Assembly: GCF_963921235.1 (NCBI RefSeq)
Contig: NC_086097.1
Coordinates: forward strand, 168,766,001-168,830,000
Length of the DNA stretch: 64,000 nucleotides
Direction: 5' to 3'
Source: Mobula hypostoma
Lineage: Eukaryota
In this document: in pieces, positions 2,307 to 26,800 of the stretch
Layout of the letters: every line of letters begins with the position of its first letter
Position numbering within the stretch: position 1 is the first letter of the stretch
Made by a program: the position numbers and the translations under genes
The notes under the pieces: model-generated
What the model saw: the letters and a program-made list of their open reading frames with translations, nothing else
What the model was told of the DNA's origin: nothing
Database searches by the model: none

Positions 2307-2648
2307 TAGATAAGCAAATCATCTATCAAGATACAGATGCCTGGAAGTTGGTTTGTAGTAATTCAACCAAGTGAGTTAACAGCTGTTAATAAACAAGGCT
2401 TCTTTAAACAGCTATAATAGAATTCCAATGGATGATCACTGAGCTATTATAAACAGGACAGCAAGCTTCACATCTTCAAATTGCAACGGCTTTGCTATAG
2501 TCTAATCTATTCCCACTTTACTAATGAGTGAATTAGTGCATAAAATCTTAACTTGCTTCCATATTTGGTCAACATGAAAGACTTTTAACAGTGTATTTTA
2601 CACCAAGGAACAAAATCACTTTCGAGATGCCCATGTATAGATTTTTAC

Positions 2649-2866
2649 CTTAAGCATGTTGCAAAAGCTCTCCTGGGATTTCGATGCACAAAGTGAATTG
2701 GGAAACCTTTGAAAGTATGTCCATCAGGCACTGCTCGCTTGATAGCATCTTGGAACTCTTCATTGCCTGCAGACACTCCTGTAGTACGCTCAATCTCATA
2801 TGCGGCAAGTGCAGGCGATAGCAAATAAGACAGATTGTCATCCCACACAGTGTTCAGACCAAGGTC
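2649..2866 (-). CDS. CEP76: CEP76 exon 11 ([20 protein letters not shown]...RRAFATCL)
   Basis: 218 nt, CAACAG acceptor, GTAAAA donor. Inside ORF 2645..2902. Confidence 0.97.
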
Positions 2867-5800
2867 CTGTTGAGGTAGAATCAGTACAACAAAGACTACC
2901 AATGAAAATAAATGACAAGTGGCAGCAATCCAATTATTGATTAAAATTTCAGGTCTCTTATCAGCTTGATAATTTGTTGATAATTAAACTAGATGTCATT
3001 AAAAGTTTGACATTATCTCAGCAGTACTGCCAAAGAACACTGATGTTTAAAAGAACATCACTAATGTAACATTCAGGGAAAGGTTTCACTAATAATTAGG
3101 TATATTATTCAAGTAATGATTTACTTGAATGATTTTTGGTTGTTATTACATATTATACTGCTGCTAATCTTGCAAACCTAATGTTAAGTCTTATTTATTT
3201 AGGGCAGGATTAGAGAAATTTTAAGTCCACACAAGTGGATTTTTTTCTGGCTATTCCAAATTAATATTTTGCTTCCAACATGAAATTAAAATTAAATTCA
3301 TTTAACTTTCCAGACAATATTCTGATTACTCAACTAAAAATGAAACTAGTATTCTGCTTTATAGGGATTTTAAAACTTCTGTGGCAAATTTAACTAAATT
3401 CCTCAGGCAAGAAACCCTTAAAACCTGTATTGTAATATATTAAAATAATTGTTACATATATGTCACAAATATAAGTAATTCTTTTTGAAAGAGAAAATAG
3501 TGTGGAGGAGAATGCAAGAATTGGAACCAGTCCATTCAGCCCTTTGTATCTGTACTATCATTTTCATAAGCTGATCCTTCTATCTCCTTTCCTGCACGAA
3601 CAAGGTTCCCTTATTATCTATTATCAACTGATTTCTGACTTAAATGAATTTAACAATTGAACCTCCATTAGTCGTCTTGGATAAAAACAAATTCAAAAAT
3701 TCATTATCCATCTGGAAAAGAATTTTTCCCCACCTACTTTGAACTGCTAACACCTTATTCTGAGACTTGGCTCAAGAGACCCCAGCTAGGAACAACATCT
3801 AGCCAATTAAGAAATTATATACAGTATGTTTCCAACTCTCATTCTTCCAATCTGGTCTGCTCACTTCTTCATCACAGCAATCTATCTAGCGAACCTTTGT
3901 TGCACTTCCTCATTCACAAGAATATTCTTCATGTGTAGACAATACCTATACAGAACTTTTTCCTGAGCGCTGTCTTCCCACAATCCTATATAATTCCAGT
4001 AAAATGTCTTTATTCTTCCTCTCAAATCCTATGGAACTAAAGATCGTTACACCATTTGTCTTCCTAATTGCTTGCTGTTTTATATTGTTTCAAAAACAAA
4101 ACATTGAATCACAGTGGATTTAATTTGCTTTTTTTGCCACCGGTCAACAGAAAAGAACTTTCTTGTCAAAGTGAAAACCGATCTCTACAAAGTGATCTAA
4201 ATTAGTTTCAAATATAAAACACAAAATAATTGATTACACAAGTATCACCCACTTTAATGACACACCAAATTATAACTGGTGCAGTCATTTGGTTTTAGAA
4301 GACACATAATTAGTTAAATGGAGATCACCATGTGCAGTCAAGGTGTTTCAATTGATTGTAGTAAGAATACACCTGTACAGTATCTGAATGGTCCAACTGC
4401 TGGTGAGTCAGTGTCCTGGCAAAAACCACACCATGAAGACAAAAGAACACCCTAAGCAACTCTGCGAAAAAGTTGTTGAAAAGCACAAGTCAGGAGATGG
4501 ATACTAGAAAATTTCCAAGTCACAGAATATCACTTGGAGTACAGTTAAGTCAATCATCAAGAAATAGAAAGAATATGTAAAGCTGTAAATCTGCCTTGAG
4601 CAGGCTGTCCTCAAAAACAGAGTGACTATGCAAGAAGCGGACTAGTGAGGGAGGCCACCAAGAGACCCATGCCAACTCTGGAGGAGTCACAAGCTTCAGT
4701 GACTGAGGTGGGAGAGACCTTGCATACAGCTGTTGACCAGGTGCTTCACCAGCCGCAGCTTTATGGGAGAGTGGCAAAGACAAAGTCACTGCTGAAAAAA
4801 AACTGACATAAAATCTCAGCTAGAGTTTGCTAGAAGGCATGTGGGAGTCTTTGAAGTCAGCTGGAAAAAGGTACTACGGTCTGATGAAACAAAAATTGAG
4901 TTTTCGGCCATTAGACTAAATGCTGTGTTTGGTGTAAGCAAAACACTGCATGCCATCAACAATGCACCATCCCTATCGTGAAGAAAGGTGGTGGCTGCAT
5001 TATGCTGTAGGGATGCTTCACTGCAACAGACCCCAGAAGGCTTGTGAAGGTAGAGGGTAAAATGAATGCAGCAAAATCCTGGAGGAAAACCTGATGCAGT
5101 CTGCATGAGAACTGCAACCTGAGAGAAGATTTGATTTCCAGCAAGACGATGACCCCAAGCATAAAGTCAAAGCTACAAAGCAATTGCTTAAAAACAACAA
5201 AGTCCTGGAGTGGCCAAGTCAGAGTCCAGACGTCAATCCAATTGAGAATTTCTGGTTGGACTTGAAAAGGGCCATTCATTCACAATCCCCATACAATTTG
5301 ATAGAGCTTGAGCAGTTTTGTAAAGAAGAATGAAGAAGGATTGCATTGTCCAGATGTGCAAAGCTGATATAGGCACCTATCCACACAGACTCAAGGCTCT
5401 AATTGCTGCCAAAGGTGCATCAACTAAATAGTGACTTGAAGGGGGTGAATAGTTATGCAATCAAATATTTTACGTTTTATACTTGTAACTAATTTAGATC
5501 ACTTTGTAGAAATCTGTTTTCACTTTGACATGAAAGAGCCTTTTACTGTTGATCAGTGTCAAAAAAGTCAGATTAAATCCACTGTGATTCAATGTTGTAA
5601 AACCATAAAACATGAAAATGTTCAGGGGGAGGTGAATACTTTTTATAGGCCACACACATACACACACTCTAAGACAGGGGTCCCCAAGCTTTTTTGCTCT
5701 GCAGACCGGTTTAATATAGTATTGACAATATTCTTGCAGACCAGCCGACCCGGCGGGGGGGGGGGGGTTGTTCAAGTAGGGTTAAACTCACCTCAACATG

Positions 5801-8800
5801 TCTTTTACAGTTAGGGTTTCCAACTTTCTCCCTCCCAAATAAGGAACAAAAGTAGCAGTCAAATCCTGACGAAGGGTCCCGGCCCGAAACGTTGACTGTA
5901 CCTCTTCCTATAGATGCTGCCTGGCCTGCTGCGTTCACCAGCATTTTTTGTGTGTGTTGACGAGACACTTGTGTTTACCCCGAGAAAGACTACCATAACC
6001 TCGAAGCCTTGCGCGGGCACCTGTGTGCGCATGCATGATGTTCGCATATGTGACGTGCACATGCGCATATGTGCCGATTTTTTTCCCATTAATTGGTTGT
6101 GCCTTAATCTTCTCAACTACACTGTACATACATTATTTCTACTTTATATAGGCTGTGTATTTATCATATCATTAATGCTTTTACTATATGTTAGAATTAT
6201 TTTAGGTTTTATGTGTTATTTGGTAGGTTATTTTTTGGGTCTGGGAACACTCAAAAATTTTTCCCATATAAATTAATGGTAATTGCTTCTCACTTTATGC
6301 CATTTCCGGATGAAAGGTTTCATAGGAACGCTCTACCTTAGCGGGGGAAATACAGGACAAGGGCGGTCCCGTATGGGACAAACCAATTTAGCCCAATATA
6401 CAGGATGTCCCAGCAAATACAGGACAGTTGGCAACCCCATATTCAAGTTCAACAGTGTGTGACAGGGAATGAGGAAAGGTGCAGCTGACTCGTATCATTT
6501 CCTCGCGGCCTGGTAGCACATGCTTTGCAGCCTGGTACCGGTCCGCAGCCCAGTGGTTGGGGACCGCTGCTCTAAGAGATACTTAACTGAGTAAAAGGTA
6601 TCAAAAAAAAAAGGGAACTATCTTTGCCTAACCTCTTTCAGTTCCCTTGGATTGTTCCCATGGGCTGCAAAAAGGCTAAAGTGATGACAAAGGGAAATGA
6701 GAAATAACAGACATTTTAGTTGACAGGAAAGTTGCCTGTAAGGTATAATCAAAAAACAAACTTATCTACGTGGATAGATATATTGATAGAGCTTTCCAAA
6801 TTGAATTCTGGAAAAGGCGACCATACTGACTTTGTTTTAAACTAAACTATCAGGATAGCAAACATAGGTAAACAATTAGGTCAAAAGCAACAGGGATACT
6901 TTAATGAGATAATTTGGAGGATGGGAGGACGCAAGAGGAAGACAAATTGGTCTGCTTCAGCATTGTACATACTGTGTAATATATGCACAAGGAGTTATTT
7001 ATTACAATAGTCCTCTGTAATTAGAGGTCATTCTAGACTGGATAAGAAATTTGCAACATCAATGACATAGGTTGTGAATGCAGCCTTACAGTAGTACACA
7101 GGGATTTATCAATTATCAATGTGAATGCATTGGAGAAACTGCTCACAAATATATAACTGATTAAAAAAGACGTGAGTGAAAATACCTTAAACAAGAAAGC
7201 TCGGCTCTTGGTAAAACTTATGCATTTGGACGGCATCTGACAGTTACTTATTTTCAATAAATGTAGGAGAAATATAGCAGAAAGTCTGTGCTATCAGAGA
7301 TTTTATCATGTAAAATCTCTAGCCTTCTTGTACTAACTACAGCCCTTCAGGCTGGATAGCCTAGCTTGCCCTTTTTCACATGGTAGCACACAGAGATACC
7401 TCATCCACTGGTGATCCAAATTACGGAAACTTTCCATTGGAGTTCCAAGAAAATAGTGAGGCTAGGACTGGTTTCAGGGTTGATTCTCATGTCAGGGTAT
7501 CAAATTATATGCTGAAATGTTTGTATTGTACAGTATTCATCTATTAAATACAGGAGACAGAATACAAAATTTCCATCCTCTTTAAATAAACTATAAAAGA
7601 ACGTCATTCAATTATATGTTGTATTTAAATAGGGCAGAAATACAGTCACATTACTGAAGATCTCAAAATACCATTATGCTTGTTTATTTTCATACCTTCC
7701 TGTGTTCTGAAATCAGACCCCTCAAAGCCAATTCAATCTCATTGCTCGCAACTGCTGCATCAATCGTTGGAGCACACAAAGGTGGAAATGGTGGCAATGA
7801 AATAGACGATCCGGGAGCACACACAGATCTTATGGCCTCTGTACTCATGGGTTTCCACTGCGATTCATCATTTAGGTCAAAGTGGCACAGTTCAACTGTG
7901 TCAGATGGCTGACAATTTGCATAAAAGCTCTGGTGATTGAAGAGGCAGCCGATTGAGCAATATGGATACACCCTCTTTGGTTGCTCTACTAATGGTGGGT
8001 CATCAGGATTAACAGGCTGGTGAACATATCTGTATAAAAACAAAGCCAAAAATCAACTTTAAATATACAGGAATATAACAGTTTCCCAACAGCGTGTTTG
8101 TATTAAATGGATCAAACATTGATTTTAAAGTCAATTAAATCATGACTAAATACATCTAACACTTCTCTAAATTAAAATAGGAATTGTCTGTAACTAAGAT
8201 ACAGATTAATAGAATTCCTTAGACAATCAGTGCTTGATCTATTAACTACATTTAATCCTCTTAAAGCAGTTCAAGCAACACAAGTGCATTAAACTTAGAT
8301 AAAAAAGACATGGAATGTTAGGAGAATTGGCATGAATCAACAAATGGCAAGTATTGTTCAAAGCAAGTGATGACATGGGAAGGTGATGAAGTTTTGGGGT
8401 ACTCGGAGGTATGTGACAGGCCAGTCAATGTGGTTTCCTTAAGGGGAAATTTTACCTGACAAATCTGTTGGAATGCTTTGAGGAAATAACACCCAGGATA
8501 GACAAAGGGGAGTCAGTGGATATTGTTTATTTGGATTTTCAGAAGGCCTTTGGCAAGTGCTGCATATAAGGCTGGTTAACTAGATAGAAGTCCATGATGT
8601 TTCAGGACAGATTCTACCATGGATAGAAGATTGGTTGACTGGCAGGAGGCAAAGAGTGGGAATAAAGGAGGCCTTTATTCGTTGGCTGCCGGTGTTCCAC
8701 AGGGGTTAATGTTGGGACCATTTCTTTTCACATTACATGTCAGCGCTTTAGATAACATAATTGATAGCTTTGTGGCCAAGTCTGAAGACAATACAGAGGT

Positions 8801-11800
8801 AGGTGGAGGGGCAGGAAGTATTGAGGAAGCAGAAAGTCCGCAGAAGGATTTAGATTGGGAGAATGGACAAAGAAGAGGGAGATGGAATACAGTATAGGGA
8901 AGTGTATGGTCATGTAGTTTGGTAGAAGGAATAAAGGCACAGACTATTTTCTAAACAGGGAGAAAAATTTAAAAAAAAGGCGGTGTAAAGGAATTTGGGC
9001 GTCCTCGTGCAGGATTACCTGAACATTAACCTGTCGGTTCAGACAGTATTTAAGGAAAGTAGGAGACTTCCGGTAGCGCTCATGGAGTGAAGTCGCGTTC
9101 TTGACTCGCTCCATTACCTCTGAGTTTTTTTTCTCTATGGTCAGCTATACTTTTATTAACCATTAAGGCATCAATTCTTACAATACTTTGAATTAAACTG
9201 AATTCTCCGACAATTGGATGATACTTAGATCTGCTATGTCTAAGAACGGGAAAAACGGCAAGGATGGTAAACCTCCGGTTAAACCGAAAGCTACGGATCT
9301 CCCCCCGACTGAATCACCGGTGACTTTGAAAGCTATATCGGAGTTAATTCAGAGGGAAATTTCAACCTCTGTTAGGGAGATGATTCGTACGGAAATTGCA
9401 GGCCCTGTTAAAGACCTGATTCATACGGAAATCTCAACTAATCTCCAGAAAATTACCGATTCAATTGATAAGATGCAAACATTTATTGCGGAACATCAGT
9501 CGGCTATATCTGATCTTCAAAAATTCGCGCAACAAAGTGAGCTTAAGATGGGGAAAATCGAAGAAACAATTAATGTAATGAAGAAGAAACTTGACTTTTT
9601 GACTTTTAAAAAGTCTGACTTGGAATCTAGAATGCGACGGCAGAATTTACGAATGATCGGGGTAAGGGAAGCTGTGGAATCTAACAACCCCATGAAATAT
9701 TTTTCTCAACTTTTAAAAGATGCATTCCCTACTGTATTTCCTGACCAACCACCGCTTCTGGATCGTGTTCACAGAATCCCATCATACTCGTCTAGGTCAG
9801 ATAGACCTAGGCATGTTATCTTACGTTTTCATTACTTTCAAGACAAGGAGAGACTGTTTCGATTCGCTCGATCTAAAGGTTTCATTGATTTTTCGGATCT
9901 TAAGTTCCGATTCGTGGAAGATTTCAGTAAACCAATCTGGGACCAGCGGGTTCGTTACAGATCCGTGATGTCGGAATTCTATAAGATGGACTTAAGACCA
10001 GCGCTGCTGTACCCTGCACGTCTAAGGATTCGCATGTCAGATGGAGCCCTTCGTTTTTTTGATTCTCCATCGGATGCCCAGAGTTATCTGGATCAACTTT
10101 CATCTTTAACATCTTAATTGCTTTTTTTTAATTATCTCCGTTGATCGGAGGCTGTGAATTGGTTGGTTTTAACTTTTTCGTGCCCTATTTGGGCAGAAAA
10201 GTTTATTTTTGATTTCTTAATATGGTTGCTAAACTTTCTTTTTAACTGCGTCATTTCTTTCTTTTCCCAGGGGATTCTGGGTGGTTACTTCCTTTTTGTC
10301 ATCTTACGTATTTCCTGTGTGGCCTTAAATTTTGTAGTTTTTTTTTAAATTTTATTCTGTTTTGCTTTTTATAACCACTTTATGTCAATAATCTTATTTT
10401 TTCTTGTTGCTGTGTCTATTCATGGGTTTGAGGTTTATTGTGGTTTTTTTTTAATATATATTTTCCGGCTTTTGTTCTGTTCTGTGTGTATTTTAATTGA
10501 GCTACCTTTTTTTTTACTTTTTTACTGTTTTACAATTAGCTGATCCTTTTCATATTTATACCTTTTTTTTAGGGAGCGTATACCGGAAGTCATGGGGGTA
10601 GTTTTAGCGCTTGCTTCTTTCTGGCGGGTCTGCTTTAGATTTTGCCTTCGGGTCTTGGGGCGGGGGTGGTGGGAGGGGCTTCACGTTTTAGTTTGTTTCT
10701 CTTTGGGCTATATACATTATTGAAGTACTGGTTGCGTCCTTTTTCCCGGTATCTTTTGTATGTTCTGTTTCCTCTCCGGGTTTGTGGGTCGCGCCTATCG
10801 TCAATCCTCCTTGTTGTGGGTTGACTTTAGGATTTATGGAGTCTATTATTAATTTTGTCTCCTGGAATACTAACGGTCTTAATCATCCTATTAAAAGGAA
10901 AAAAGTTTTTAAAGTGTTCCGGAGACTTAAAGCACAAATTTTATTTTTACAAGAGACCCATGTACGGAGGGGGGACAGACTACGTTTTTTCAAATTCTGG
11001 AAGGAACAACAATTTCATTCGAACTCCAATGCTAAGATCCGAGGCGTTTCTATTTTTATAGATTCCTCAGTTACTTTTATACAACAGGATATTATCTCTG
11101 ATCCGAATGGTAGATTTTTATTGGTTAGTGGTTTACTATTTAATAAAAAAGTAGTTTTGGTTAATGTTTATGCTCCTAATATGGATTGTCCGGAATTTTA
11201 TAAATCATTGTTTGATCAGTTTCCGAATTTGAATGAGTTTTCATTGATTTGGGGCGGAGATCTTAATACCTGTTTGTCTCCAGCTTTGGACCGTTCGGCT
11301 CCTTTACGGACTTTACCTAATAAATCTGCAAATCTGATTAATTTCTTCCTTTCTGATTCTGGGTCGATGGACATTTGGCATTTTCTGCATCCTCAGGAAA
11401 AAGATTTTTCCTTCTTTTCACATGTTCATCATTCCTATTCAAGAATTGATTATTTTTTCATTGATTCTCGTCTTATTCCTTCAGTGATTAAATGTGATTA
11501 TGATTCTATAACCATTTCGGATCATGCTCCACTTAAGCTTTCTATTAAAATTATGGCCAATATACCAAATAGACAATGGCGTTTTAATTCGCTGTTGCTT
11601 CAGGACTCGGACTTTGTTAATTTTATGAATGAACAGATTGGGCTTTTTTTTTTTACAATTAACCATACAGAAGATATTTCGGTTAACACTCTTTGGGACA
11701 CTTTTAAAGCCTATATTCGGGGTCAGATTATTTCGTATTCTGTTGCTTTGAGGAAGAAACAGAAGCAGGAGGAGATGGCAATTGTGGACAAGATTAAAGA

Positions 11801-14800
11801 AATTGATAAGAAATATGTTATGGCTCCTTCTGAGGAGTTATACAAACAAAGAACTGAACTTCAAATGGAACACAGTTTACTACTCTCGTCCTCGATTGTA
11901 AACCAATTAAAGAAAACAAGAAGTGACTTTTATGTTCACAGTGACAAAATTGGCAAGCTGCTGGCTAATCAATTGAAATCTAATTATGTTAAATCTCAAA
12001 TCAATCAGATTTATAACCAAAATGATCGATTGATACTGGATCATGTGGGGACTAATCAAACCTTTTGTGATTTTTATTCTTCTTTTCTTTCTTTCTTTTT
12101 AAATCTTTTTATTGAGTAAGTATACAAAAAAGGTAAGCCATATAAACATTAATACAATGTTAAAGTATAATAAAATTCCAAAAGATAACAATACCAAAAA
12201 GAAAATACTACAAACAATGTAATTTAAGCATAAGAAACCAAGATAACATAATAGTATACTAGATTTTATATATATCAATGGAAAAAAAAGAAAAAAAAAA
12301 AAACCCCAAAAAAAAACCCACCGTGCAACTAACTAAAAGCAAAGCAAAGCAATGGGCTAACTTGAAACCAAACAGAGTTAAACTTAAAATCACGTCCTCA
12401 ATCCCGACCTCCATTAAAACAGTGAAAAAAGAACAAGAAGGGTAAATATTACATTAAATGAAAATATCGAATAAAAGGTCCCCAAATCTGTTCAAATTTA
12501 AATGAAGAATCATAAAGGTTACTTCTAATTTTCTCCAGATTCAAACATAAAATCGTCTGAGAAAACCAAAAAAAGGTAGTTGGAGCATTAAGCTCTTTCC
12601 AATGTTGTAAAATACATCTTTTCGCCATCAAAGTAAGAAATGCAATCATTCTACGGGCTGAAGGGGAAAGATTACTAGAAATTTTAGGTAGTCCAAAGAT
12701 AGCGGTAATAGGGTGAGGAGAGATATCTATATTTAATACCTTAGAAATAATATTGAAAATATCTCTCCAAAAAGTTTCCAAAGTAGGGCAAGACCAAAAC
12801 ATATGAGTTAAAGAGGCTATCTGCCCCGAACATCTATCACAGAAAGGATTAATATGCGTGTAAAAACGCACTAACTTATCTTTGGACATATGTGCTCTAT
12901 GAACCACTTTAAATTGAATTAGGGAATGTTTAGCACAAATAGAGGAAGTATTAACTAATTGTAAAATCTGCCCCCAATCATCCACAGAGATGGTAAGCCC
13001 CAATTCCTGTTCCCAATCTACCCTAATCTTATCAAATGGAGCTTTCCTAAGTTTCATAATAATATTATAAATCATAGCCGATGCACCTTTCTGACATGGA
13101 TTAAGGTTAATTATCGAATCTAAAATATATATAGGAGGAAGCATTGGAAAGGAAGAAAGTATAGTACTTAAGAAATTTCTAACTTGTAAATATCTAAAAA
13201 AATGTATTCTTGATAAGTTATATTTATTAGATAATTGTTCAAAAGACATAAGGGAACCATCTAAAAATAAATCCAAAAACCGTAAAATACCCTTAGTCTT
13301 CCAAGTTTGAAAAGCGCGATCCGTAAAAGAGGGAGGAAAAAATATGTTACCTAAAATAGGAATCGCTAACCCGAATTGATTAAGATCAAAAAATTTTCTG
13401 AATTGAAACCAAATACGCAAAGCATATTTAACGATCGGGTTAGAGACCTGCTTAAGGCGTTTCGAATCAAAGGGAAGAGATGAACCTAAAATAGAACCAA
13501 GTGTATAACCCTGAACAGATTGTAATTCCAATGCTACCCATTTAGGAATAGATAGTATGTCCCGGTCAAGTAACCAAAATTTCATATGTCGAATATTAAT
13601 AGCCCAATAATAAAATCTAAAGTTAGGTAATGCTAAACCTCCATCTCTCTTAGCTTTCTGTAAATGTATTTTACCCAGTCTCGGATTCTTATTCTGCCAA
13701 ATAAATGAAGAAATTTTAGAGTCGACTTTATCAAAAAAAGATTTAGGAACGAAAATTGGTAATGCCTGAAACACATATAAAAATTTTGGCAAAAAAAACA
13801 TCTTAACTGCATTAATACGACCAATCAAAGTTAAATATAAGGGAAACCATTTAGATGAAAGTTGAGTAATATGGTCTATTAATGGTAAAAAGTTAGTCTT
13901 AAATAAATCTTTATGTTTACAAGTAATTTTAATCCCAAGATATGAAAGGTAATTATTAATCAATTTAAATGGAAATTTATAATATAAGGGAAGATGTTTA
14001 TTAATCGGAAAAAGTTCACTCTTACTAAGATTTAATTTATAACCTGAGAAAAGACCAAATTGTGCTAATAACTCTAAAACAGCAGGAATAGATCTCTCAG
14101 GATTAGAAATATATAAAAGTAAATCATCAGCATAGAGTGATAATTTATGGAACTTTAATCCCCGAGTTATCCCAGTAATATTTGAAGATTCTCGAATAGC
14201 AATTGCAAGAGGTTCTAATGCAATATCAAATAATAGGGGACTAAGAGGACAGCCTTGTCGAGTACCACGAAAGAGAGGAAAAAAAGGTGAGTTTAAAGAG
14301 TTAGTACGAACCGAGGCTACAGGGGAGTGATATAACAGTTTAATCCAGGATATAAATTTCAAGCTAAAATTAAACATTTCAAGCACCTTAAATAAATAAG
14401 GCCATTCTACTCTATCAAAAGCTTTCTCGGCATCTAAAGAAATAACACACTCAGGAACATTTTGTGAGGGAGTATAAACGATATTTAACAATGTACGAAT
14501 ATTATAAAAAGAGTAACGACCTTTAATAAAACCCGTTTGGTCTTCCGAAATAATAGAAGGAAGTACTTTTTCTAGTCTATTTGCTAATAACTTAGAAAAA
14601 ACTTTAGAATCAACATTTAATAAAGATATTGGTCTATAAGATGCACATTGAGCAGGGTCTTTATCCTTCTTTAGTATTAAAGAAATTGATGCTCTATTAA
14701 AAGATTCCGGAAGTTTACCAAGTTTCAAAGAAGCCTCAAAAACCTTATAGAGCCAAGGAATCAATAAAGAAGCAAAACATTTATAAAATTCAACGGTAAA

Positions 14801-17800
14801 CCCATCAGGGCCAGGAGCTTTCCCCAGATTCATAGAAAAAATAACATTCTTAATCTCATCCATTGTAATGGAAGTATCTAATAAAGAAGACATATCCTGT
14901 GAAATCTGAGGGAAATCTAACTTATCTAAAAAATCATTCATATATTTAGAATCTCGAGGAGACTCTGATTGATATAAAGAAGAATAAAAATCACAAAAGG
15001 TTTGATTAATCCCCACATGATCCAATATCAATCGATCATTTTGGTTATAAATCTGATTGATTTGAGATTTAACATAATTAGATTTCAATTGATTAGCCAG
15101 CAGCTTGCCAATTTTATCACTATGAACATAAAAATCACTTCTTGTTTTCTTTAATTGGTTTACAATCGAGGACGAGAGTAGTAAACTGTGTTCCATTTGA
15201 AGTTCAGTTCTTTGTTTGTATAGCTCCTCAGAAGGAGCCATAACATATTTCTTATCAATTTCTTTAATCTTGTCCACAATTGCCATCTCCTCCTGCTTCT
15301 GTTTCTTCCTCAAAGCAACGGAATACGAAATAATCTGACCCCGAATATAGGCTTTAAAAGTGTCCCAAAGAGTGTTAACCGAAATATCTTCTGTATGGTT
15401 AATTGTAAAAAAAAGCTCAATCTGTTCATTCATAAAATTAACAAAGTCCGAGTCCTGAAGCAACAGCGAATTAAAACGCCATTGTCTATTGTTTGGTATA
15501 TTGGCCATAATTTTAATAGAAAGCTTAAGTGGAGCATGATCCGAAATGGTTATAGAATCATAATCACATTTAATCACTGAAGGAATGAGACGAGAGTCAA
15601 TAAAAAAATAATCAATTCTTGAATAGGAATGATGAACATGTGAAAAAAAGGAAAAATCTTTTTCCTGAGGATGCAGAAAACGCCAAATGTCCGTCGACCC
15701 AGAATCAGAAAGAAAAAAATTAATCAAATTTGCAGATTTATTAGGTAAAGTCCGTAAAGGAGCCGAACGGTCCAAAGCTGGAGATAAACAGGTATTAAGA
15801 TCTCCGCCCCAAATCAATGAAAACTCGTTCAAATTCGGAAACTGATCAAACAATGATTTATAAAATTCCGGACAATCCATATTAGGAGCATAAACATTAA
15901 CCAAAACTACTTTTTTATTAAATAGTAAACCACTAACCAATAAAAATCTACCATTCGGATCAGAGATAATATCCTGTTGTATAAAAGTAACTGAGGAATC
16001 TATAAAAATAGAGACGCCTCGAATCTTAGCATTGGAGTTCGAATGAAATTGTTGTTCCTTCCAGAATTTGAAAAAACGTAGTCTGTCCCCCCTCCGTACA
16101 TGGGTCTCTTGTAAAAATAAAATTTGTGCTTTAAGTCTCCGGAACACTTTAAAAACTTTTTTTCTTTTAATAGGATGATTAAGACCATTAGTATTCCAGG
16201 AGACAAAATTAATAATAGACTCCATAAATCCTAAAGTCAACCCACAACAAGGAGGATTGACAATAGGCGTGACCCACAAACCCGGAGAGGAAACAGAACA
16301 TACAAAAGATACCGGGGAAAAGGACGCAACCAGTACTTCAATAATGTATATAGCCCAAAGAAAAACAAACTAAAACGTGAAGCCCCTCCCACCACCCCCC
16401 ACCCCAAGACCCCAAGGCAAAATCTAAAGCAGACCCGCCAGAAAGAAGCAAGCGCTAAAACTACCCCCATGACTTCCGGTATACGCTCCCTAAAAAAAAG
16501 GTATAAATATGAAAAGGATCAGCTAATTGTAAAACAGTAAAAAAATAAGTAAAAAAAAAAGTTAGCTCAATTAGAATACACACAGAACAGAACAAAAGCC
16601 GGAAAATATATATTAAAAAAAACCACAATAAACCTCAAACTCATGAATAGACACAGCAACAAAAAAAAATAGGATTATTAACATAAAGTGATTATAAAAA
16701 GCAAAACAGAATAAAATTTAAAAAAAAACTACAAAATTTAAGGCCGCACAGGAAATACGTAAGATGACAAAAGGGAAGTAACCACCCAGAATCCCCTGGG
16801 AAAAGAAAGAAATGACGCAGTTAAAAAGAAAGTTTAGCAGCCATATTAAGAAATCAAAAGTAAACTTTTCTGCCCAAATAGGGCACAGAAAAGTTAAAAC
16901 CAACCAATTCACAGCCTCCGATCAACGGAGAAAATTAAAAAAAAAGGCAATTAAGATGTTGAAGATGAAAGTTGATCCAGATAACTCTGGGCATCCGATG
17001 GAGAATCAAAAAAACGAAGGGCTCCATCTAACATGCGAATCCTTAGACGTGCAGGGTACAGCAGCGCTGGTCTTAAATCCATCTTATAGAATTCCGACAT
17101 CACGGATCTGTAACGGACCCGTTGGTCCCAGATTGGTTTACTGAAATCTTCCACGAATCGGAACTTAAGATCCGAAAAATCAATGAAACCTTTAGATCGA
17201 GCGAATCGAAACAGTCTCTCCTTGTCTTGAAAGTAATGAAAACGTAAAATAACATGCCTAGGTCTATCTGACCTAGACGAGTATGATGGGATTCTGTGAA
17301 CACGATCCAGTAGCGGTGGTTGGTCAGGAAATACAGTAGGGAATGCATCTTTTAAAAGTTGAGAGAAATATTTCATGGGGTTGTTAGCTTCAACGGCTTC
17401 TCTCACGCCGATCATTCTTAAATTCTGCCGTCGCATTCTAGATTCCAAGTCAGAGTTTTTAAAAGTCAAAAAGTCAAGTTTCTTCTTCATTACATTAATT
17501 GTTTCTTCGATTTTCCCCATCTTAAGCTCACTTTGTTGCGCGAATTTTTGAAGATCAGATATAGCCGACTGATGTTCCGCAATACATGTTTGCATCTTAT
17601 CAATTAAATCGGCAATTTTCTGGAAATTAGTTGAGATTTCCGCATGAATCAGATCTTTAACAAAGCCTGCAATTTCCGTACGAATCATCTCCCTAACAGA
17701 GGTTGAAATTTCCCTCTGAATTAACTCCGATATCGCTTTCAAAGTCACCGGTGATTCAGTCGGAGGGAGATCCGTAGCTTTCGGTTTAGCCGAAGGTTTA

Positions 17801-20800
17801 CCATCCTTGCCGTTTTTCCCGTTCTTAGACATAGCAGATCTAAGTATCATCCAATTGTCAGAGAATTCAGTTTAATTCAAAGTATTATAAAAATTGATGC
17901 CTTAATGGTTAATTAAAGTATAGCTGACCATAGAGTAAAAAAACTCAGAGGTAATGGAGCGAGTCAAGAACGCGACTTCACTCCATGAGCGCTACCGGAA
18001 GTCCCCTTTATTCTTCTTTATATCAATCAGAGTCTCCTCGAGATTCTAAATATATGAATGATTTTTTAGATAAGTTAGACTTCCCTCAGATTTCACAGGA
18101 TATGTCTTCTTTATTAGATACTTCCATTACAATGGATGAGATTAAGAATGTTATTTTTTCTATGAATCTGGGGAAAGCTCCTGGCCCTGATGGGTTTACC
18201 GTTGAATTTTATAAATGTTTTGCTTCTTTATTGATTCCTTGGCTCTGTAGGGTTTTTGAGGCTTCTTTGAAACTTGGTAAACTTCCTGAATCTTTTAATA
18301 GAGCATCAATTTCTCTAATACTAAAGAAGGATAAAGACCCTGCTCAATGTGCATCTTATAGACCAATATCTTTATTAAATGTTGATTCTAAAGTTTTTTC
18401 TAAGTTATTAGCAAATAGACTAGAAAAAGTACTTCCTTCTATTATTTCGGAAGACCAAACGGGTTTTATTAAAGGTCGTTACTCTTTTTATAATATTCGT
18501 ACATTGTTAAATATCGTTTATACTCCCTCACAAAATGTTCCTGAGTGTGTTATTTCTTTAGATGCCGAGAAAGCTTTTGATAGAGTAGAATGGCCTTATT
18601 TATTTAAGGTGCTTGAAATGTTTAATCTTAGCTTGAAATTTATATCCTGGATTAAACTGTTATATCATTCCCCTGTAGCCTCAGTTCGTACTAACTCTTT
18701 AAACTCACCTTTTTTTCCTCTCTTTCGTGGTACTCGACAAGGCTGTCCTCTTAGTCCCCTATTATTTGATATTGCATTAGAACCTCTTGCAATTGCTATT
18801 CGAGAATCTTCAAATATTACTGGGATAACTCGGGGATTAAAGTCCCATAAATTATCACTCTATGCTGATGATTTACTTTTATATATTTCTAATCCTGAGA
18901 AATCCATTCCTGCTGTTTTAGAGTTATTAGCACAATTTGGTCTTTTCTCAGGTTATAAATTAAATCTTAGTAAGAGTGAACTTTTTCCGATTAATAAACA
19001 TCTTCCCTTATATTATAAATTTCCATTTAAATTGATTAATAATTACTTTTCATATCTTGGGATTAAAATTACTTGTAAATACAAAGATTTATTTAAGACT
19101 AACTTTTTACCATTAATAGACCATATTACTCAACTTTCATCTAAATGGTTTCCCTTATATTTAACTTTGATTGGTCGTATTAATGCAGTTAAGATGTTTT
19201 TTTTGCCAAAATTTTTATATGTGTTTCAGGCATTACCAATTTTCGTTCCAAAATCTTTTTTTGATAAAGTTGACTCTAAAATTTCTTCATTTATTTGGCA
19301 GAATAAGAATCCGAGACTGGGTAAAATACATTTACAGAAAGCTAAGAGAGATGGAGGTTTAGCATTACCTAACTTTAGATTCTATTATTGAGCTATTAAT
19401 ATTCGACATATGAAATTTTGGTTACTTGACCAGGATATACTATCTATTCCTAAATGGGTAGCATTGGAATTACAATCTGTTCAGGGTTATACACTTGGTT
19501 CTATTTTAGGCTCCTCTCTCCCTTTTGATTCGAAACGTCTTAAGCAGGTCTCTAACCCGATAGTTAAATATGCTTTGCGCATTTGGTTTCAATTCAGAAA
19601 ATTTTTTGATCTTAATCAATTCGGGTTAGCGATTCCTATTTTAGGTAACATATTTTTTCCTCCCTCTTTTACGGATCGCGCTTTTCAAACTTGGAAGACT
19701 AAGGGTATTTTACGGTTTTTGGATTTATTTTTAGATGGTTCCCTTATGTCTTTTGAACAATTATCTAATAAATATAACTTATCAAGAATACATTTTTTTA
19801 GATATTTACAAGTTAGAAATTTCCTAAGTACTATACTTTCTTCCTTTCCAATGCTTCCTCCTACATATATTTTAGATTCGATAATTAACCTTAATCCATG
19901 TCAGAAAGGTGCATCGGCTATGATTTATAATATTATTATGAAACTTAGGAAAGCTCCATTTGATAAGATTAGGGTAGATTGGGAACAGGAATTGGGGCTT
20001 ACCATTTCTGTGGATGATTGGGGGCAGATTTTACAATTAGTTAATACTTCCTCTATTTGTGCTAAACATTCCCTAATTCAATTTAAAGTGGTTCATAGAG
20101 CACATATGTCCAAAGATAAGTTAGCGCGTTTTTACTCGCATATTAATCCTTTCTGTGATAGATGTTCGGGGCAGATAGCCTCTTTAACTCATATGTTTTG
20201 GTCTTGCCCTACTTTGGAAACTTTTTGGAGAGATATTTTCAATATTATTTCTAAGGTATTAAATATAGATATCTCTCCTCACCCTATTACCGCTATCTTT
20301 GGACTACCTAAAATTTCTAGTAATCTTTCCCCTTCAGCCCGTAGAATGATTGCATTTCTTACTTTAATGGCGAAAAGATGTATTTTACAACATTGGAAAG
20401 AGCTTAATGCTCCAACTACCTTTTTTTGGTTTTCTCAGACGATTTTATGTTTGAATTTGGAGAAAATTAGAAGTAACCTTTATGATTCTTCATTTAAATT
20501 TGAACAGATTTGGGGACCTTTTATTCGATATTTTCATTTAATGTAATATTTACCCTTCTTGTTTTTTTTTCACTGTTTTTAATGGAGGTCGGGATTGAGG
20601 ACGTGATTTTAAGTTTAACTTTGTTTGGTTTCAAGTTAGCCCATTGCTTTGCTTTGCTTTTAGTTAGCTGCACGGTGGGTTTTTTTTTGGGGTTTTTTTT
20701 TTCTTTTTTTTCCATTGATATATATAAAATTTAGTATACTATTATGTTATCTTGGTTTCTTATGTTTAAATTACATTGTTTGTAGTATTTTTTTTGGTAT

Positions 20801-23800
20801 TGATATCTTTTGGAATTTTATTATACTTTAACATTGTATTAATGTTTATATGGCTTACCTTTTTTGTATACTTACTCAATAAAAAGATTTAAAAAGGAAA
20901 GTAAATGCAGTGTTAAAATATATTTGGAGAGGACTAGAAGGATGTAATACTGAGGCTTTTTAAGGAATTGGTCGGACTACACTTGTAGTATTATGAGCTG
21001 TTTTGGGCCCTGTATCTTGGAAAAGATGCACTAGCAATGGAGAGGGTCCAGAGGAGGTTCATAAGAATAATTCCAAGAATGAGAGGGCTAACGTTTGATG
21101 GCTCAGGACCTGTACTTGTTGGAGTTTAGAAGTATGGGAGGCATCTCACTGAAACCTATTGAATATTGAAAGGCTTAGATAGAATGGATGTTGAGAGGAA
21201 GATCTCCTATGGTGGGCTAGTCTAGGACCAGAGGGAACAGCCTCAGAATAGAGGGGCATCCATTTACAACAGAGATGATGATGATGAGGAGGAGGAGGAA
21301 TTTCTTTAGCCAGAGGGTAGTAAATCTGTGGAATTCATTGTCACAGACAGCTGTGGAGGCCGAATCATTGGGTATACTTAAATTGGAGATGGATAGGTTC
21401 AGGATGTGAAAGGTTACAGGAAGAAGGCAGGAGAAGGAGGTTGACAAAGATAATAAATCAACCATAATAGAATGGCAAAGAAGACTCGATGGGCCAAATG
21501 GTTTAATTCTGCTCCTATACATGGTCTTATGAATAAATAGAGAAAGCACAAAAGAAAAAAGGAATATAGGAAATCAATGCTGAAGCCTACACCGCAACCT
21601 GCAATAGCAATAAGGAAATCAAGATTTCAGGTGCAGTCAGGCTCACGAGCTCACTGATTGATCAGACCAGACCTGCACTCGTCACATCCAGAAAATATTC
21701 GAAATAACCACAAATTCTGCAGACACAAGCTCAGACTATAAGTAGTAAACAAGCCAGTTTAAGGTTTAATTATTTCACAGATAGGTTAGCCAATGGAACA
21801 GACAGTTGAAAGAAATAGATAATACCAGCAAGTAAGAGGGGGTTGGTTAGTTATTTGGCAAAATAATATAATAGAACATAGATTATAATAATAGAAAATA
21901 GATAATAATAGCTGCAATATGTAGGCATGTACATACTACACATGACTCTATGGACTGCTATTTCTCAAATGCGGGGTGTACAAGCTTATTGATAATGCAA
22001 AGCTGGGTGGCAGTGTTGACTGTAAAAAGGATGAAGAAAGGCATTTCTGTATTTAATGTGTAACAACCTAACCATGAGATTCAAAAAAAAGTTTTCAAGT
22101 ACCTTAATTAATCCTACTGGATAAATAGCATTCTAATTTATTACACGGGTATTTCTTCCAATTTTCAGTCCAATGACACTGTTATATGGAAATTGGAAGG
22201 GTGAGTGTTCATGATGTTATCATTCAGGGGTTATTCTGGAGTCCAACACCTTGCTGGCCTGTTGGTGATTTATATGACTACTTAAAGAACTTGAACCAGA
22301 GCAAAAACTAAGTTTTGTGCACTGGAGGAAAATAGAAGAGTAGGTAGGGTGGCCCTGATATTAAAGAATGGGATAAAAGCAGGAGAAAGAATCAGTTTCC
22401 TTTAGAGCTAAGAAACAAGGCGTAGAAGAAACCACTGATGGGAGCTTTGTATATAGAGACCCCCCCCCCCCGCAAAAGTGGTAGTAATTTAAGACAGAGT
22501 ATAAACCAAGAGATTAAAGATGCAGTCGACAGGAACAATGCATTAGTCGCAAGGGACGTCAGTCTAAAATCATTCCAAATTAACAGTAATAATGTGAGGA
22601 CAAATTCATAAAGTGTACAAGAGATGGATTTTTTTGCTATGTAATGGAAACAAGGGAATAGACAATTTTAATTCTTTTGTGAATGAGTTATGATTTGGAG
22701 TCTTTAGTTATCATAATATGAAAGAACCTTATATAGTAATTTAAAATGTTTTTGTTTAATCTGAAGCCAAGGTCTTAGATCTATATAAATGACAATGGCA
22801 TGAAGCATGAGTGTATTGGAAAAAAAAACATTAAAACATTTAACTGCAGCATCTATGGACAATCATTTAAAGAATTAACACATAGGTTTAAGTCATGTAC
22901 TCCCCTTTAAGATGCAAAATCAAACAGGAAAACTAGTCTGTCCATGGCCATCAGTAGAAGTTAGAGACGACATTAGAAAACGTGCCAAAAGAAAACAAAA
23001 GCAGGAAATCATGATTTCCAAAGGCAAATTATGTTTGGAACATCCACTGGAATTTTCTGAAGTTATAATTAATAGAATGCAATAGGGTAAATCAGTTAAT
23101 GTTGTATATTTACACTTTAAGGCAGCTTTGTAAGTCGCCACACCATAGATTATTAAGCAAAATTAGAGGTTATTAACAAGTGTAAAACAAGAATTAGCAG
23201 AGAACCCAAAATGAATAATTTGGAGGATGGAACAAATAGTGGGCCACAGGGTCAAACGCTGTATGCACAAGCTCGTTGATGATGCAAAACTGGGCAGTAA
23301 TGTAGACTGCCAAAAGGATGCAGAAAGATTTCATTAAGATGTGAACAGGTTAAATAAATGTGCATGGTCATGGCAGCTGGTATATAACTGGAAAAAAGGT
23401 TAGGTCACCACCCCACTCCCGGTAGAAAAAAAATAGAAGGGTGAGTAGACTTTCAATGCTTAGAGTTTGGTGTTCGTAAGCACCTTGGTGTACTTGGACA
23501 CCAATATACAGTACTACATAACTAACATACAGTTCCAGGTAGCAAATAGTATGTTGGCCTTTATAGCCAAAGGATTTAAGAACATAATTCTTTCTCCCAT
23601 TATATGGGATTTTGTTGACACATGTGCACGTCTGATCAATCTACCAAAGGAAGCAAATATTCAAGATGGAGGAAGTGCAACATAAGCTCAAGAGAGTGAT
23701 TCATTACACGAGGACTGGCCCTACACTGATAAGTTTAGACAAATGAGTGGTAATGTCTTTGAAATGTACAAAATGGTATAGTGTACAAACAGGCCATGAC

Positions 23801-26800
23801 ATAGTAGAGGTATGGATGCTTCCCTTGGCTGAGTATCAGAAATAAGAGATGAAAGTGAATTTTCTTCATCCCATAGTAGTTATTTAGACTTCTTTACCAA
23901 AGGAGCTATGAAAGCTCAGCCACTTAGCATACATAAGAAAGCCCATTACCAATTTTTTCGATATTAGGGAAATAAAACTATTTGGTTTAGTGCAGGAAAA
24001 TAGTATTAAAATTAAAGACCAGCCATGATATTATTGAATGCAGAATCAGGCACGAGGGGTTGAATATCCAACTCTTGCCTCTATTTCTTATGGTCTACAA
24101 AATCAGTAACCTGGCACCAAGCTGATAATTTTCTCAAAACCTCAACCATTACCCAGTTAAATAGAACATGGTTCTAAGGTGGAAGATCTTTGTGCAAGAC
24201 TGACAGAGAAATCCTGTATATGCACCCTCTCTTAGAATTGTACCCAAGACTCAACATATAGATTACTGGGGTAGAAAAGTATACTGGTAACATTATATAC
24301 TTTAATAATGAATGAATACTTTGTTTTCACCTGCATCCTGTTAAGCTCTCCCAGAAAACAACATCCCCATTTGTTCCACAGGTTATCACCCAAGTGTGGG
24401 GCACCCTTCTTGCTTTTGTTCCTACACACACGTAGGCATCCAATCCAAAGCCCAGCAGCAAACTGCACAGTAAGGTGGCATGATCCTCACAGTCTCCCTA
24501 AAGGTAACCAAAAGTAGATAGACTGATTGTCCCCAATGGAGAAAAAAAACATTCACCCCAAAACATCCCAATTTAACAATAATTAGATACACTAAAGCAG
24601 AATCCTTTTGTCTCTTTCATGCCGAAATCTATGCTTCCCTAACTTTCATCCAATCTCTGGTCAACTAATAGAAAAATAGAAAATAATTTGCTAACTTAAC
24701 AAGGACTTCCCCAAAAAATAACTGATTGGATGTATAAAATGTTTTCATACATCCCATGAACACAATAAACTTATTTATTTTAACACAGAATGGGGCTATC
24801 CATCCCAACAGGACAACGTTGGCCCTCAAGTGCAATTCCGTCAATCCCATTCCCACTCTCAATTCCCTGTGGCTCAGCAATATATGCTCCTTCACGTGCC
24901 CATCAATTCCTCTTTGATGCTTTTGCCATGCGACAATGAGGATAGAAATAGAATGAGGTCGCGGATAAATATGTTGCTGAAGAATCGGAGTGGGGGCCGG
25001 GATTCAGATTTCTGGATAATTGGGATCTCTTCTGGGGCAGGTGTGACCTGTACAAAAGGGACAGTGATGCTGGGAAGGTCATGTAATAAGGATAATGTCA
25101 CAATTGTACTGGGGGACTTCAACATGCAAGGGAATTGGGAAAATCAGGTTGGTGTTGGATCACGAGAGGGAATTTGTTGAATGCCGACAAGATGTACTTG
25201 AGCCTATTGAGCCTACTAGGGGAAAGGCCATCTTAGATTGGGTGTTGTATGATAGCCCAGGTCTTATTAGGGAGCTTAACGTAAAGGGACTCTTACGAGG
25301 CCGTGATCACAATATGACTGCAATTTGAGAGAGAGAAGCACAAGTCACATATATCAGTATCGCAGTGGAATAAAGGGAATTACAAAGGCATGAGAGAGGA
25401 GTTTGCCCAGGTGGATTGGAGGAGGATACTGGCGGGGATTTCAGCGGAGCAGAGATGGCTGAAGTTCCTTGGAATAGTTCGCAAAGCACAGGATAGATAT
25501 GGCCCACAGGAGCAGTTGTTTTCAAATGGTGGAGGTAGAAAACCGTGGCTGACAACGGAAGTCAAGGACTGCATAAAAACTAAGGAAAGGGCATATAAGA
25601 TAGCAGAAGTGAGTGGCAAGTTGGATGATTGGGAAGCTCTTAAAATCCAACAAAAGGCAACTAAAAAAGCTACAAGGAAAAAGGTGAAATATGAGGGCAA
25701 ACTAGCCAATAATATAAAGCAGGATACTAAAAGTTTTTTCAGTTATATAGAGTAAAAGGGAGGTGAGAATTGATATTGGACCACTGGAAAATAATGCTGG
25801 TGAGGTAATAATGGGGGACAAAGAAATGACAGATAAACTTAATGGATACTTTGCATCAGTCTTCACTGTGGGAGACCCAAGCAGTGAGCCAGAGGTCCGT
25901 GAGCTTCAGAGAGCAGAACTGAGTGTCTTTGCTACTACAAAGGAAAAAGTGCTAGGTAAACTCAAAGATCTGACAGTAGGTAAGTCACCTGGACCAGATG
26001 GACTACATCCCTGAGACCTGAGAGAGGTTGCTGAAGAGATAATGATGCATTGATCATGATCTTTCAAGAATCATTTGATTCTGGCATGGTCCCAAAGGAC
26101 TGGAAAATTGCAAATGTCACTCCACTCTTTAAGAAAGAGGAAAGCAAAAGCGAAGAAATCATAGGTCAGTTGGCCAAACCTCAGTGATTGGGAAAGTGTT
26201 GGAGTCTATTATTAAGGATGAGGTTTTGGGGTACTTGGAGACTAATGATAAAATAAGTCAAAGGCAGCATGGTTTCTGTAAAGGGAAATCTTGCCTGACA
26301 AATCTGTTAGAATTCTTCAAGGAAGTAACAAGCAAGGTGGACAAAGGAGTGGCTTTGTATGTTATTTACCTGGATTTTCAGAAGGCATTTGATACGATGC
26401 CACATATGAGGCTGCTTAACAAGGTAAAATCCTATGGCATTACAAGAAAGATGCTGGCATGGATAGAGTAATAGCTGACAGGCAGGAGGCAGTGAGTGGG
26501 AATAAAGGGGGCCTTCTCTGGTTGGCTGCCAGTGACTAGTGGTGTTCCTCAGGGGTCAGTATTGGGACCGCTGCTGTTCACATTATTTGTCAATAATTTA
26601 GGTAGTAGAATTGATGGCTTTGTGGCAAAGTTTGCGGATGATACGAAGATAGATAGAGGGGAAGGTGGTGCTGAGGAAGCAATGTGGATGCAGCAGGACT
26701 TGGACAAATTGGAAGAACGGGCAAAAAGTGGCAGATGGAAGAGTGTTGGAAAATGTATGATAGTACATTTTGGTAAAAGGAACAATACTGCAGACTATTA

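What the first reader, a model, noticed from the sequence alone, without database searches (positions are those of the whole stretch)
9052..20903. Intact L1 nested head-on inside a near-identical sister L1, inside a CR1, inside CEP76 intron 9
Seen: three layers can be resolved to the base. CR1 is split by L1-A (TSD AAGGAAAGTA, pre-insertion site TTT|AAGG). A's ORF2 is split by L1-B in the opposite orientation (TSD AAAGAAGAATAAA in B's sense, site TAT|AAAG). Both L1s are full length with the same 5' end; B keeps both ORFs open, while A also has one nonsense change. Established: the sites resemble the L1 endonuclease TT|AAAA preference, and most L1 copies are 5'-truncated. Inference: a recently or currently active L1 family whose T-rich body is a good antisense target for its own endonuclease. 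B is a candidate retrotransposition-competent element.
Basis: partly seen in the sequence, partly recalled or inferred. Interest (0 to 1): 0.75.

Follow-up and report, generated by a model that had tools for sequence, protein, structure and literature searches.

The report
Ray L1 nested backwards in sibling
In a devil-ray-like genome a complete LINE-1 jumping gene with both genes unbroken sits backwards inside a 98%-identical, more damaged sister copy, which itself splits an old CR1 repeat in an intron of CEP76; it is likely an ordinary chance product of a very abundant young family, and whether the inner copy can still jump is untested.

Summary
The three-layer nest is in the sequence exactly as described: both target-site duplications are exact (10 and 13 bp), the CR1 halves rejoin on sister copies, and CEP76 intron 9 is confirmed by exon mapping. 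Both elements are fish-type L1 (every part within the zebrafish size range, same 5' motif). Their 117 substitutions are mostly synonymous (ORF2 pN/pS 0.10-0.18), so they come from two separately propagating lineages of one family. Outer copy A carries a stop and three changes at near-invariant residues; inner copy B keeps all catalytic motifs. The T-rich body does hold 2.2-2.6 times more endonuclease-like sites for backwards insertion, the reverse of human L1, but no orientation count was possible. Reads did not confirm any junction, and on a slow shark clock an intact copy need not be recent. L1-in-L1 nests are well known, and this scan has already noted similar nests elsewhere in this genome (unchecked notes). 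Real, ordinary; interest 0.22.

The parts
7696..8029 (-). CEP76 coding exon 10
   Evidence: 100% identical to Mobula hypostoma CEP76 aa 433-543, AG/GT borders
8030..24330 (-). CEP76 intron 9 (16.3 kb; about 4.5 kb without the two L1s)
   Evidence: exon mapping
24331..24497 (-). CEP76 coding exon 9
   Evidence: aa 377-432
8385..9061 (+). old 5'-truncated CR1-type LINE, left half (ends with first copy of A's duplication)
   Evidence: about 70% identical to sister copies at 26217 and 35663; RT remnant
20894..21531 (+). CR1-type LINE, right half to its 3' end (starts with second copy of A's duplication)
   Evidence: continues on sister copies with 10-base overlap; 3' end read
9052..9061 (+). target-site duplication of L1-A, left copy (10 bp)
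20894..20903 (+). target-site duplication of L1-A, right copy
9062..12085 (+). L1-A 5' half: 5'UTR, ORF1 9236-10117 (open), inter-ORF region, ORF2 5' part from 10836
12073..12085 (-). target-site duplication of L1-B, copy at B's 3' end (13 bp, part of A's ORF2)
18007..18019 (-). target-site duplication of L1-B, copy at B's 5' end
12086..18006 (-). L1-B, full length 5,921 bp, same strand as CEP76
17833..18006 (-). L1-B 5'UTR (174 bp), starts with the zebrafish-type GGACTTCCGG motif
   Evidence: motif in PMC5381506 passage
16951..17832 (-). L1-B ORF1 (293 aa)
   Evidence: Pfam Transposase_22 E 9e-10; human ORF1p E 3e-15
16226..16950 (-). L1-B T-rich inter-ORF region (725 bp, 49% T)
12449..16225 (-). 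L1-B ORF2 (1,258 aa; endonuclease, RT, C-terminal CCHC)
   Evidence: human ORF2p E 1.5e-184 over aa 4-1231
12086..12448 (-). L1-B T-rich 3'UTR, poly(A) signal and short tail of A-runs broken by single G
18007..20893 (+). L1-A 3' half: rest of ORF2 (stop at 19389-19391, natural end 20546), 3'UTR, 3-base A tail running into the duplication

Best explanation
A full-length fish-type L1 (B) sits in the opposite orientation inside ORF2 of a 98%-identical sister (A), which splits an old CR1 in CEP76 intron 9, and this most likely arose by two successive, independent target-primed insertions from different active lineages of one very abundant young family, the second landing in the first by chance. 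Shown: the order of layers, the exact duplications, the open frames of B, the extra damage in A, purifying selection on the differences between them. Inferred: the endonuclease nicked CCTT/AA in the CR1 and, later, CTTT/AT on A's sense strand; the T-rich sense strand offers about twice as many such sites for backwards as for forward insertion; the G-broken 3' tail of the RNA likely paired with the CTT/CTTT end of each nick to prime reverse transcription; A persisted long enough to decay before or after B arrived; the whole nest is spliced out and is likely near neutral.
For: Exact 10- and 13-bp duplications and rejoining of both interrupted elements. Sites within the range of human L1-endonuclease sites. 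All five parts within fish L1 size ranges (PMC5381506 section 7) and zebrafish 5' motif. ORF2: 41 synonymous vs 16 non-synonymous differences, pN/pS 0.10-0.18, p<=3e-10; ORF1 15 vs 13, pN/pS 0.24-0.38: most differences passed through replicating lineages. Against 60 outgroup ORF2 proteins A departs at R182 (60/60 conserved), I406 (59/60), F620 (55/60), W874 (60/60); B has no private change in any of 321 columns conserved at 90% or more. Summed contig depth over A's 5' half is about 1e5-2.6e5 against 17.4 in the unique flank in a run identical to the window over 1,912 bp (not a copy number, but far above single copy). With 2,000-10,000 full-length copies in an assumed 3.5 Gb, 3-84 full-in-full nests are expected by chance. 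A 2,230-nt contig of a probable RNA run matches only exon 10 with 1,291 nt on the exon 1-9 side, the length of spliced mRNA.
Against: No junction was seen in reads, and the best-matching run may be the source sample. Copy number is not measured; at 500-1,000 full-length copies only 0.2-0.8 nests are expected genome-wide, and unchecked scan notes list two more full-in-full nests, so an excess over chance is not excluded. B has three derived-looking ORF2 changes (F760L against 53/60, A1119V, C493Y). It is unknown whether the animal behind the RNA run carries the nest. Tail-target pairing rests on two junctions.
Confidence: 0.78

Rival explanations
1. Biased self-targeting: because this lineage became T-rich and ends in AAAG-like repeats, it preferentially inserts backwards into its own copies, the mirror image of human L1; such nests would disable siblings and, when transcribed with a host gene, would form kilobase-long double-stranded RNA that feeds small-RNA silencing of the family.
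For: Opposite-orientation sites 2.2-2.6x more frequent than same-orientation sites in the body, and 1.7-3.5x the per-strand density of the rest of the window; human L1-in-L1 is 21,559 sense vs 9,899 antisense (PMC2836564 Table 3). ORF2 is 39% T and 29% A against 31% T and 33% A for fish L1 (PMC7140322 passage). Perfect runs of 21 nt or more cover 2,576 of 3,010 and 2,665 of 2,837 columns of the two possible duplexes. Unchecked notes e1-9843444 and e1-8034732 describe further backwards nests.
Against: One nest examined here; a looser site definition (YYRRRR) gives only 160 vs 118; a twofold site excess is a passive bias, not targeting; no small-RNA or editing data; contigs of the family are deep in a probable RNA run (about 2,300-2,900 vs 19 for CEP76), which does not suggest strong silencing, though contigs cannot show RNA level.
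Confidence: 0.14
2. Assembly artefact: reads from several near-identical L1 loci were joined into a false nest.
For: Kilobase-long 97-98% identical inverted repeats; no read or contig shown across any junction.
Against: Both duplications are exact, the CR1 rejoins to the base, A's two halves share the same decay pattern, CEP76 exons are collinear across it, and the left flank is matched without a difference over 1,912 bp.
Confidence: 0.04
3. Recombination, inversion or twin priming rather than a second full insertion made the inverted middle.
For: Front-flipped (twin-primed) copies are reported for this family in unchecked notes; the cut end at B's 5' junction is complementary to B's own RNA.
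Against: Twin priming at that site would put B's 5' half on the same strand as A; here B is collinear and complete from its first base, runs intact through its own copy of the site (B position 3019) and is bounded by a duplication. Longest identical runs (185 and 311 bp) are no longer than random (p 0.23, 0.18), so no conversion tract.
Confidence: 0.02

Closest known systems
Zebrafish (fish-type) L1 families, Boissinot and Sookdeo 2016, PMC5381506 (abstract, passages, sections 7, 10, 11, 16 read)
   Same: Total length and all five parts within the fish ranges; GGACTTCCGG 5' end; long T-rich inter-ORF region and 3'UTR; fast-changing ORF1 N-terminus; AATAAA near the end.
   Different: ORF2 has more T than A (39% vs 29%); no pure poly(A) in either copy, whereas the paper says all its L1s end in poly(A); full-length copies seem abundant and one lasted long enough to decay and be hit again, whereas the paper says full-length copies in fish are rare and seldom fix.
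Human L1-into-L1 nested insertions, Levy et al., PMC2836564 (12 of 30 passages incl. Table 3)
   Same: L1 landing inside L1, with duplication, orientation following the strand bias of endonuclease sites.
   Different: Human bias is 2.2x sense; the site counts here predict about 2x antisense. The human set is of any L1 subfamilies and lengths, not full-length near-identical sisters.
Human L1 ORF1p/ORF2p (PDB 2ykp, 8sxt)
   Same: Full-length homology, endonuclease and RT motifs aligned.
   Different: YADD where the human chain has FADD; short 5'UTR; long spacer.
LINEs with repeat tails (UnaL2 TGTAA, I element TAA; PMC3747384 passages)
   Same: A short-unit 3' repeat rather than poly(A), suited to pairing or slippage at the nick.
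   Different: Those are L2 and I clade; this is L1 clade with a poly(A) signal, and the tail here is only 1-4 units.
CR1-clade LINEs of cartilaginous fish (HER1 listed for sharks and rays in PMC3747384 Table 1)
   Same: Outer element has a CR1-type RT C-terminus and 3' end (pattern recalled, not from a call).
   Different: No HER1 sequence was compared; family-level identity untested.

Membership tests
Vertebrate L1 clade, fish type | ORF1 with L1 RNA-binding (RRM/CTD) domain | tested here: met
   Pfam PF02994 above cut-off; human ORF1p E 3e-15
Vertebrate L1 clade, fish type | ORF2 with APE endonuclease, RT and C-terminal cysteine motif | tested here: met
   named nearest proteins are fish LINE-1 ORF2 at 44-47%
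Vertebrate L1 clade, fish type | Short 5'UTR with GGACTTCCGG, long T-rich spacer, T-rich 3'UTR | tested here: met
Vertebrate L1 clade, fish type | Target-site duplication at a TTTT/AA-like nick | tested here: met
   10 and 13 bp; CCTT/AA and CTTT/AT
Vertebrate L1 clade, fish type | Poly(A) signal followed by poly(A) tail | tested here: inconclusive
   Signal present; tails are short A-runs broken by G in both copies; two copies cannot tell a family trait from internal priming on an inherited patterned tail
Retrotransposition-competent L1 (copy B) | Full length, both ORFs open, catalytic motifs intact | tested here: met
Retrotransposition-competent L1 (copy B) | Transcribed from this locus, makes daughters or jumps in an assay | not testable with these tools
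   Contigs cannot assign family RNA to this copy; no genome held
Target-specific LINEs that home into other elements (Tx1-like habit) | Repeated insertion at a fixed position of the target | not tested
   A and B use unrelated targets (a CR1 and an L1); no genome to count
CR1 clade (outer element) | CR1-type RT and 3' end | tested here: inconclusive
   RT remnant and homology to sister copies; clade label rests on recalled motifs

The most novel reading that the evidence does not exclude
This ray L1 lineage has flipped the mammalian rules: strand-biased C-to-T change has made it T-rich, it primes with an AAAG-type tail instead of poly(A), and so it inserts backwards into its own full-length copies well above chance; nests like this one, transcribed inside host introns, become natural 3-kb hairpins covering the whole element, a built-in brake by which an L1 burst seeds its own silencing.
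Probability: 0.1. Interest if true: 0.62.

Novelty: new member of a known kind. Interest (0 to 1): 0.22.

Why it matters
As one locus it matters little: a clean record of two L1 insertions that gives a three-state marker (empty, A, A+B) for devil-ray population and species history, and one more intact template for studying an L1 of a cartilaginous fish. The family matters more than the nest: abundant long-lived full-length copies, a T-over-A sense strand and G-broken tails depart from the published fish pattern, and they make a sharp testable prediction (L1-in-L1 bias opposite to human).

Tried and rejected
No whole genome is held, so copy number, orientation counts, tail surveys and daughters of B could not be computed. 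Reads: no RNA holder listed on record; only the left flank and A's 5' half were laid (4 of 24 listed runs), so B's two junctions and A's 3' junction remain unchecked; summed contig depth is not a copy number and the 90% cut favours the window's own lineage. Metagenome scan for sister 3' ends gave 1 locus of 85 candidates, 42% identical and ending before any tail: no use. No sister ORF2 above 65% identity among 868 hits (best 120 listed), so changes were polarised with 60 distant proteins only (60 of 120 listed). No look-alike stretch in other genomes' notes. No other copy of this L1 in the window. Gene conversion between A and B: no long identical tract; the lower synonymous difference in the 3' part is borderline (p 0.058). 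Fast ORF1 N-terminus (10 non-synonymous/3 synonymous vs 3/12, p 0.007) rejected as novel: the coiled-coil region is described as highly variable in fish. Premature polyadenylation of CEP76 by sense-oriented B: B's body has 4 AATAAA, A's antisense halves 18; no effect shown. Three searches for L1s with non-poly(A) repeat tails (listings only) and one on ray genomes listed nothing on point; this does not show it is unpublished, and Repbase-type records and supplements were not seen.
Full report
Observation. Self-comparison of the window shows two inverted blocks that together span 9061-20904. They resolve into A 5' half (9062-12085, +), a complete B (18006 to 12086, -, 5,921 bp) and A 3' half (18007-20893, +). 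Outside A, the two CR1 pieces align to two sister copies in the window at about 70% and overlap there by exactly 10 bases. An exon peptide is 100% identical to CEP76 entries of Mobula hypostoma; with that protein, coding exons 1-11 map on the minus strand and the nest falls in intron 9, 8030-24330. So A and the CR1 are antisense, B sense, to the host gene.

What the elements are. ORF1 hits Pfam Transposase_22 and human ORF1p; ORF2 hits endonuclease, RT and zf-RVT and aligns to human ORF2p over residues 4-1231. B's parts (5'UTR 174, ORF1 882, spacer 725, ORF2 3,777, 3' part 363 bp) all fall in the zebrafish ranges of Boissinot and Sookdeo (PMC5381506, section 7), and the 5' end carries their zebrafish motif (passage). 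T-rich spacers and 3'UTRs are described there as well. Two departures: ORF2 is 39% T and 29% A against 31% and 33% for fish L1 (PMC7140322, passages); and neither copy ends in pure poly(A). After the poly(A) signal B has four short A-runs broken by single G, A has three A, and in both the tail runs on into a duplication that starts the same way.

History. A and B differ by 117 substitutions and 11 indels. In ORF2, 41 are synonymous and 16 not (pN/pS 0.10-0.18, p at most 3e-10); in ORF1 15 and 13. Most differences therefore arose in replicating lineages, and the two copies are cousins, not parent and daughter. Against 60 distant ORF2 proteins, A has lost residues kept in 60, 59, 55 and 60 of 60 (the last to the stop), while none of B's private changes falls in the 321 columns conserved at 90% or more; B does have F760L (53 of 60 keep F), A1119V and C493Y, and five or so differences cannot be polarised. 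A is the more decayed, as the nesting order requires. If all 16 non-synonymous differences arose after insertion, the two copies together have decayed 0.54-0.62%. The orthologous flank in a related organism differs by 33 of 1,911 bases, 0.86% per lineage, and that run also holds the left CR1 piece at single-copy depth, so the CR1 predates that split and A probably follows it (inference). Young is relative: at the epaulette shark rate of 7e-10 per generation (PMC10587355, passages; another species), 0.1% is 1.4 million generations. Open frames do not show present activity.

Reads. Four of 24 listed runs were laid on 5000-12000. One matches 6549-8460 without a difference and may be the source sample, so it is not independent. 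Summed depth over the L1 part is 6.5e4-2.6e5 against 17.4 in the flank there, 8e3-1.2e5 against 45 in the sister organism, and 0-2.2e3 against 3-5 in a third; the tool warns this is no copy number, but it points to a large, lineage-weighted family. In a probable RNA run a 2,230-nt contig matches exon 10 only, with 1,291 nt on the upstream side (exons 1-9 code about 1,295), as for spliced mRNA; whether that animal carries the nest is unknown. No displayed piece spans the CR1/A junction, most pieces were not displayed, and the other three junctions were not covered.

Mechanism. The nicks read CCTT/AA (A) and CTTT/AT (B) on the cut strand, like many human sites (PMC4859970, 12 of 31 passages). 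Human L1-in-L1 runs the other way, 21,559 sense vs 9,899 antisense (PMC2836564, Table 3 passage). One nest cannot test the predicted reversal. By chance, 2,000, 5,000 or 10,000 full-length copies in an assumed 3.5 Gb give about 3, 21 or 84 full-in-full nests, 500-1,000 copies fewer than one. The scan's notes on this genome list two more full-in-full nests and further partial ones (unchecked), which fits chance at the higher copy numbers and would be an excess at the lower. I commit to chance landing with a mild passive antisense bias (0.78), primed likely by pairing of the G-broken tail with the nick (inferred from two junctions).

Rivals. Biased self-targeting with a silencing consequence (0.14): in CEP76 pre-mRNA either pair of halves could form a 3-kb duplex, with perfect runs of 21 nt or more over 86% and 94% of columns; nothing here shows small RNAs or editing. 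Misassembly (0.04) is disfavoured by the exact duplications and the rejoining CR1. Twin priming or recombination (0.02) would not give a collinear full-length B between duplications, and no conversion tract is seen.

Novelty and verdict. A new member of a known kind: fish-type L1 in a known nested arrangement, already met by this scan at other places in the same genome. What could be new belongs to the family (tail, T bias, abundance of full-length copies, strand-biased change), not to this locus. Three literature searches on non-poly(A) L1 tails (listings only) gave nothing on point, which does not establish novelty; supplements and repeat databases were not seen. Interest 0.22.

Noticed in passing
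window 9236-20543 (A vs B coding differences): Synonymous transitions between A and B are 40 C/T vs 7 A/G on the L1 sense strand, where site counts predict 63% C/T (p 0.001); non-synonymous ones are 16 vs 9 (p 0.16). Suggests strand-biased change during the L1 replication cycle, a possible source of the T-richness.
   Followed up: partly
window 12086-12448 and 20547-20903: Both L1 tails are short A-runs broken by G, not poly(A), and run into duplications that begin with the same unit.
   Followed up: partly
window 9236-9625 and 17443-17832: ORF1 residues 1-130 differ at 10 non-synonymous vs 3 synonymous sites, the rest at 3 vs 12: relaxed or positive selection on the N-terminus/coiled coil.
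   Followed up: partly
window 16951-17832: ORF1 shows no CpG depletion (observed/expected 1.14) and only 15 of 98 A-B transitions are at CpG.
   Followed up: no
window 56809-57780: A roughly 970-bp self-inverted region at 67% identity, between CEP76 exons 2 and 3; probably an old non-autonomous DNA transposon.
   Followed up: no
window 52583-52818, 48016-48156, 60143-60288, 39907-39994: Short palindromic elements (85-95% self-complementary), likely MITE-like; related arms recur at 879-997, 5864-5959 and 30325-30401.
   Followed up: no
window 25063-27374 and 34430-36781: Two 2.3-kb CR1-type copies, 82% identical, same strand, on either side of CEP76 exons 6-8.
   Followed up: no
window 46593-46979: An ORF fragment resembling LTR-retrotransposon RT/RNase H (resemblance recalled, not searched).
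   Followed up: no
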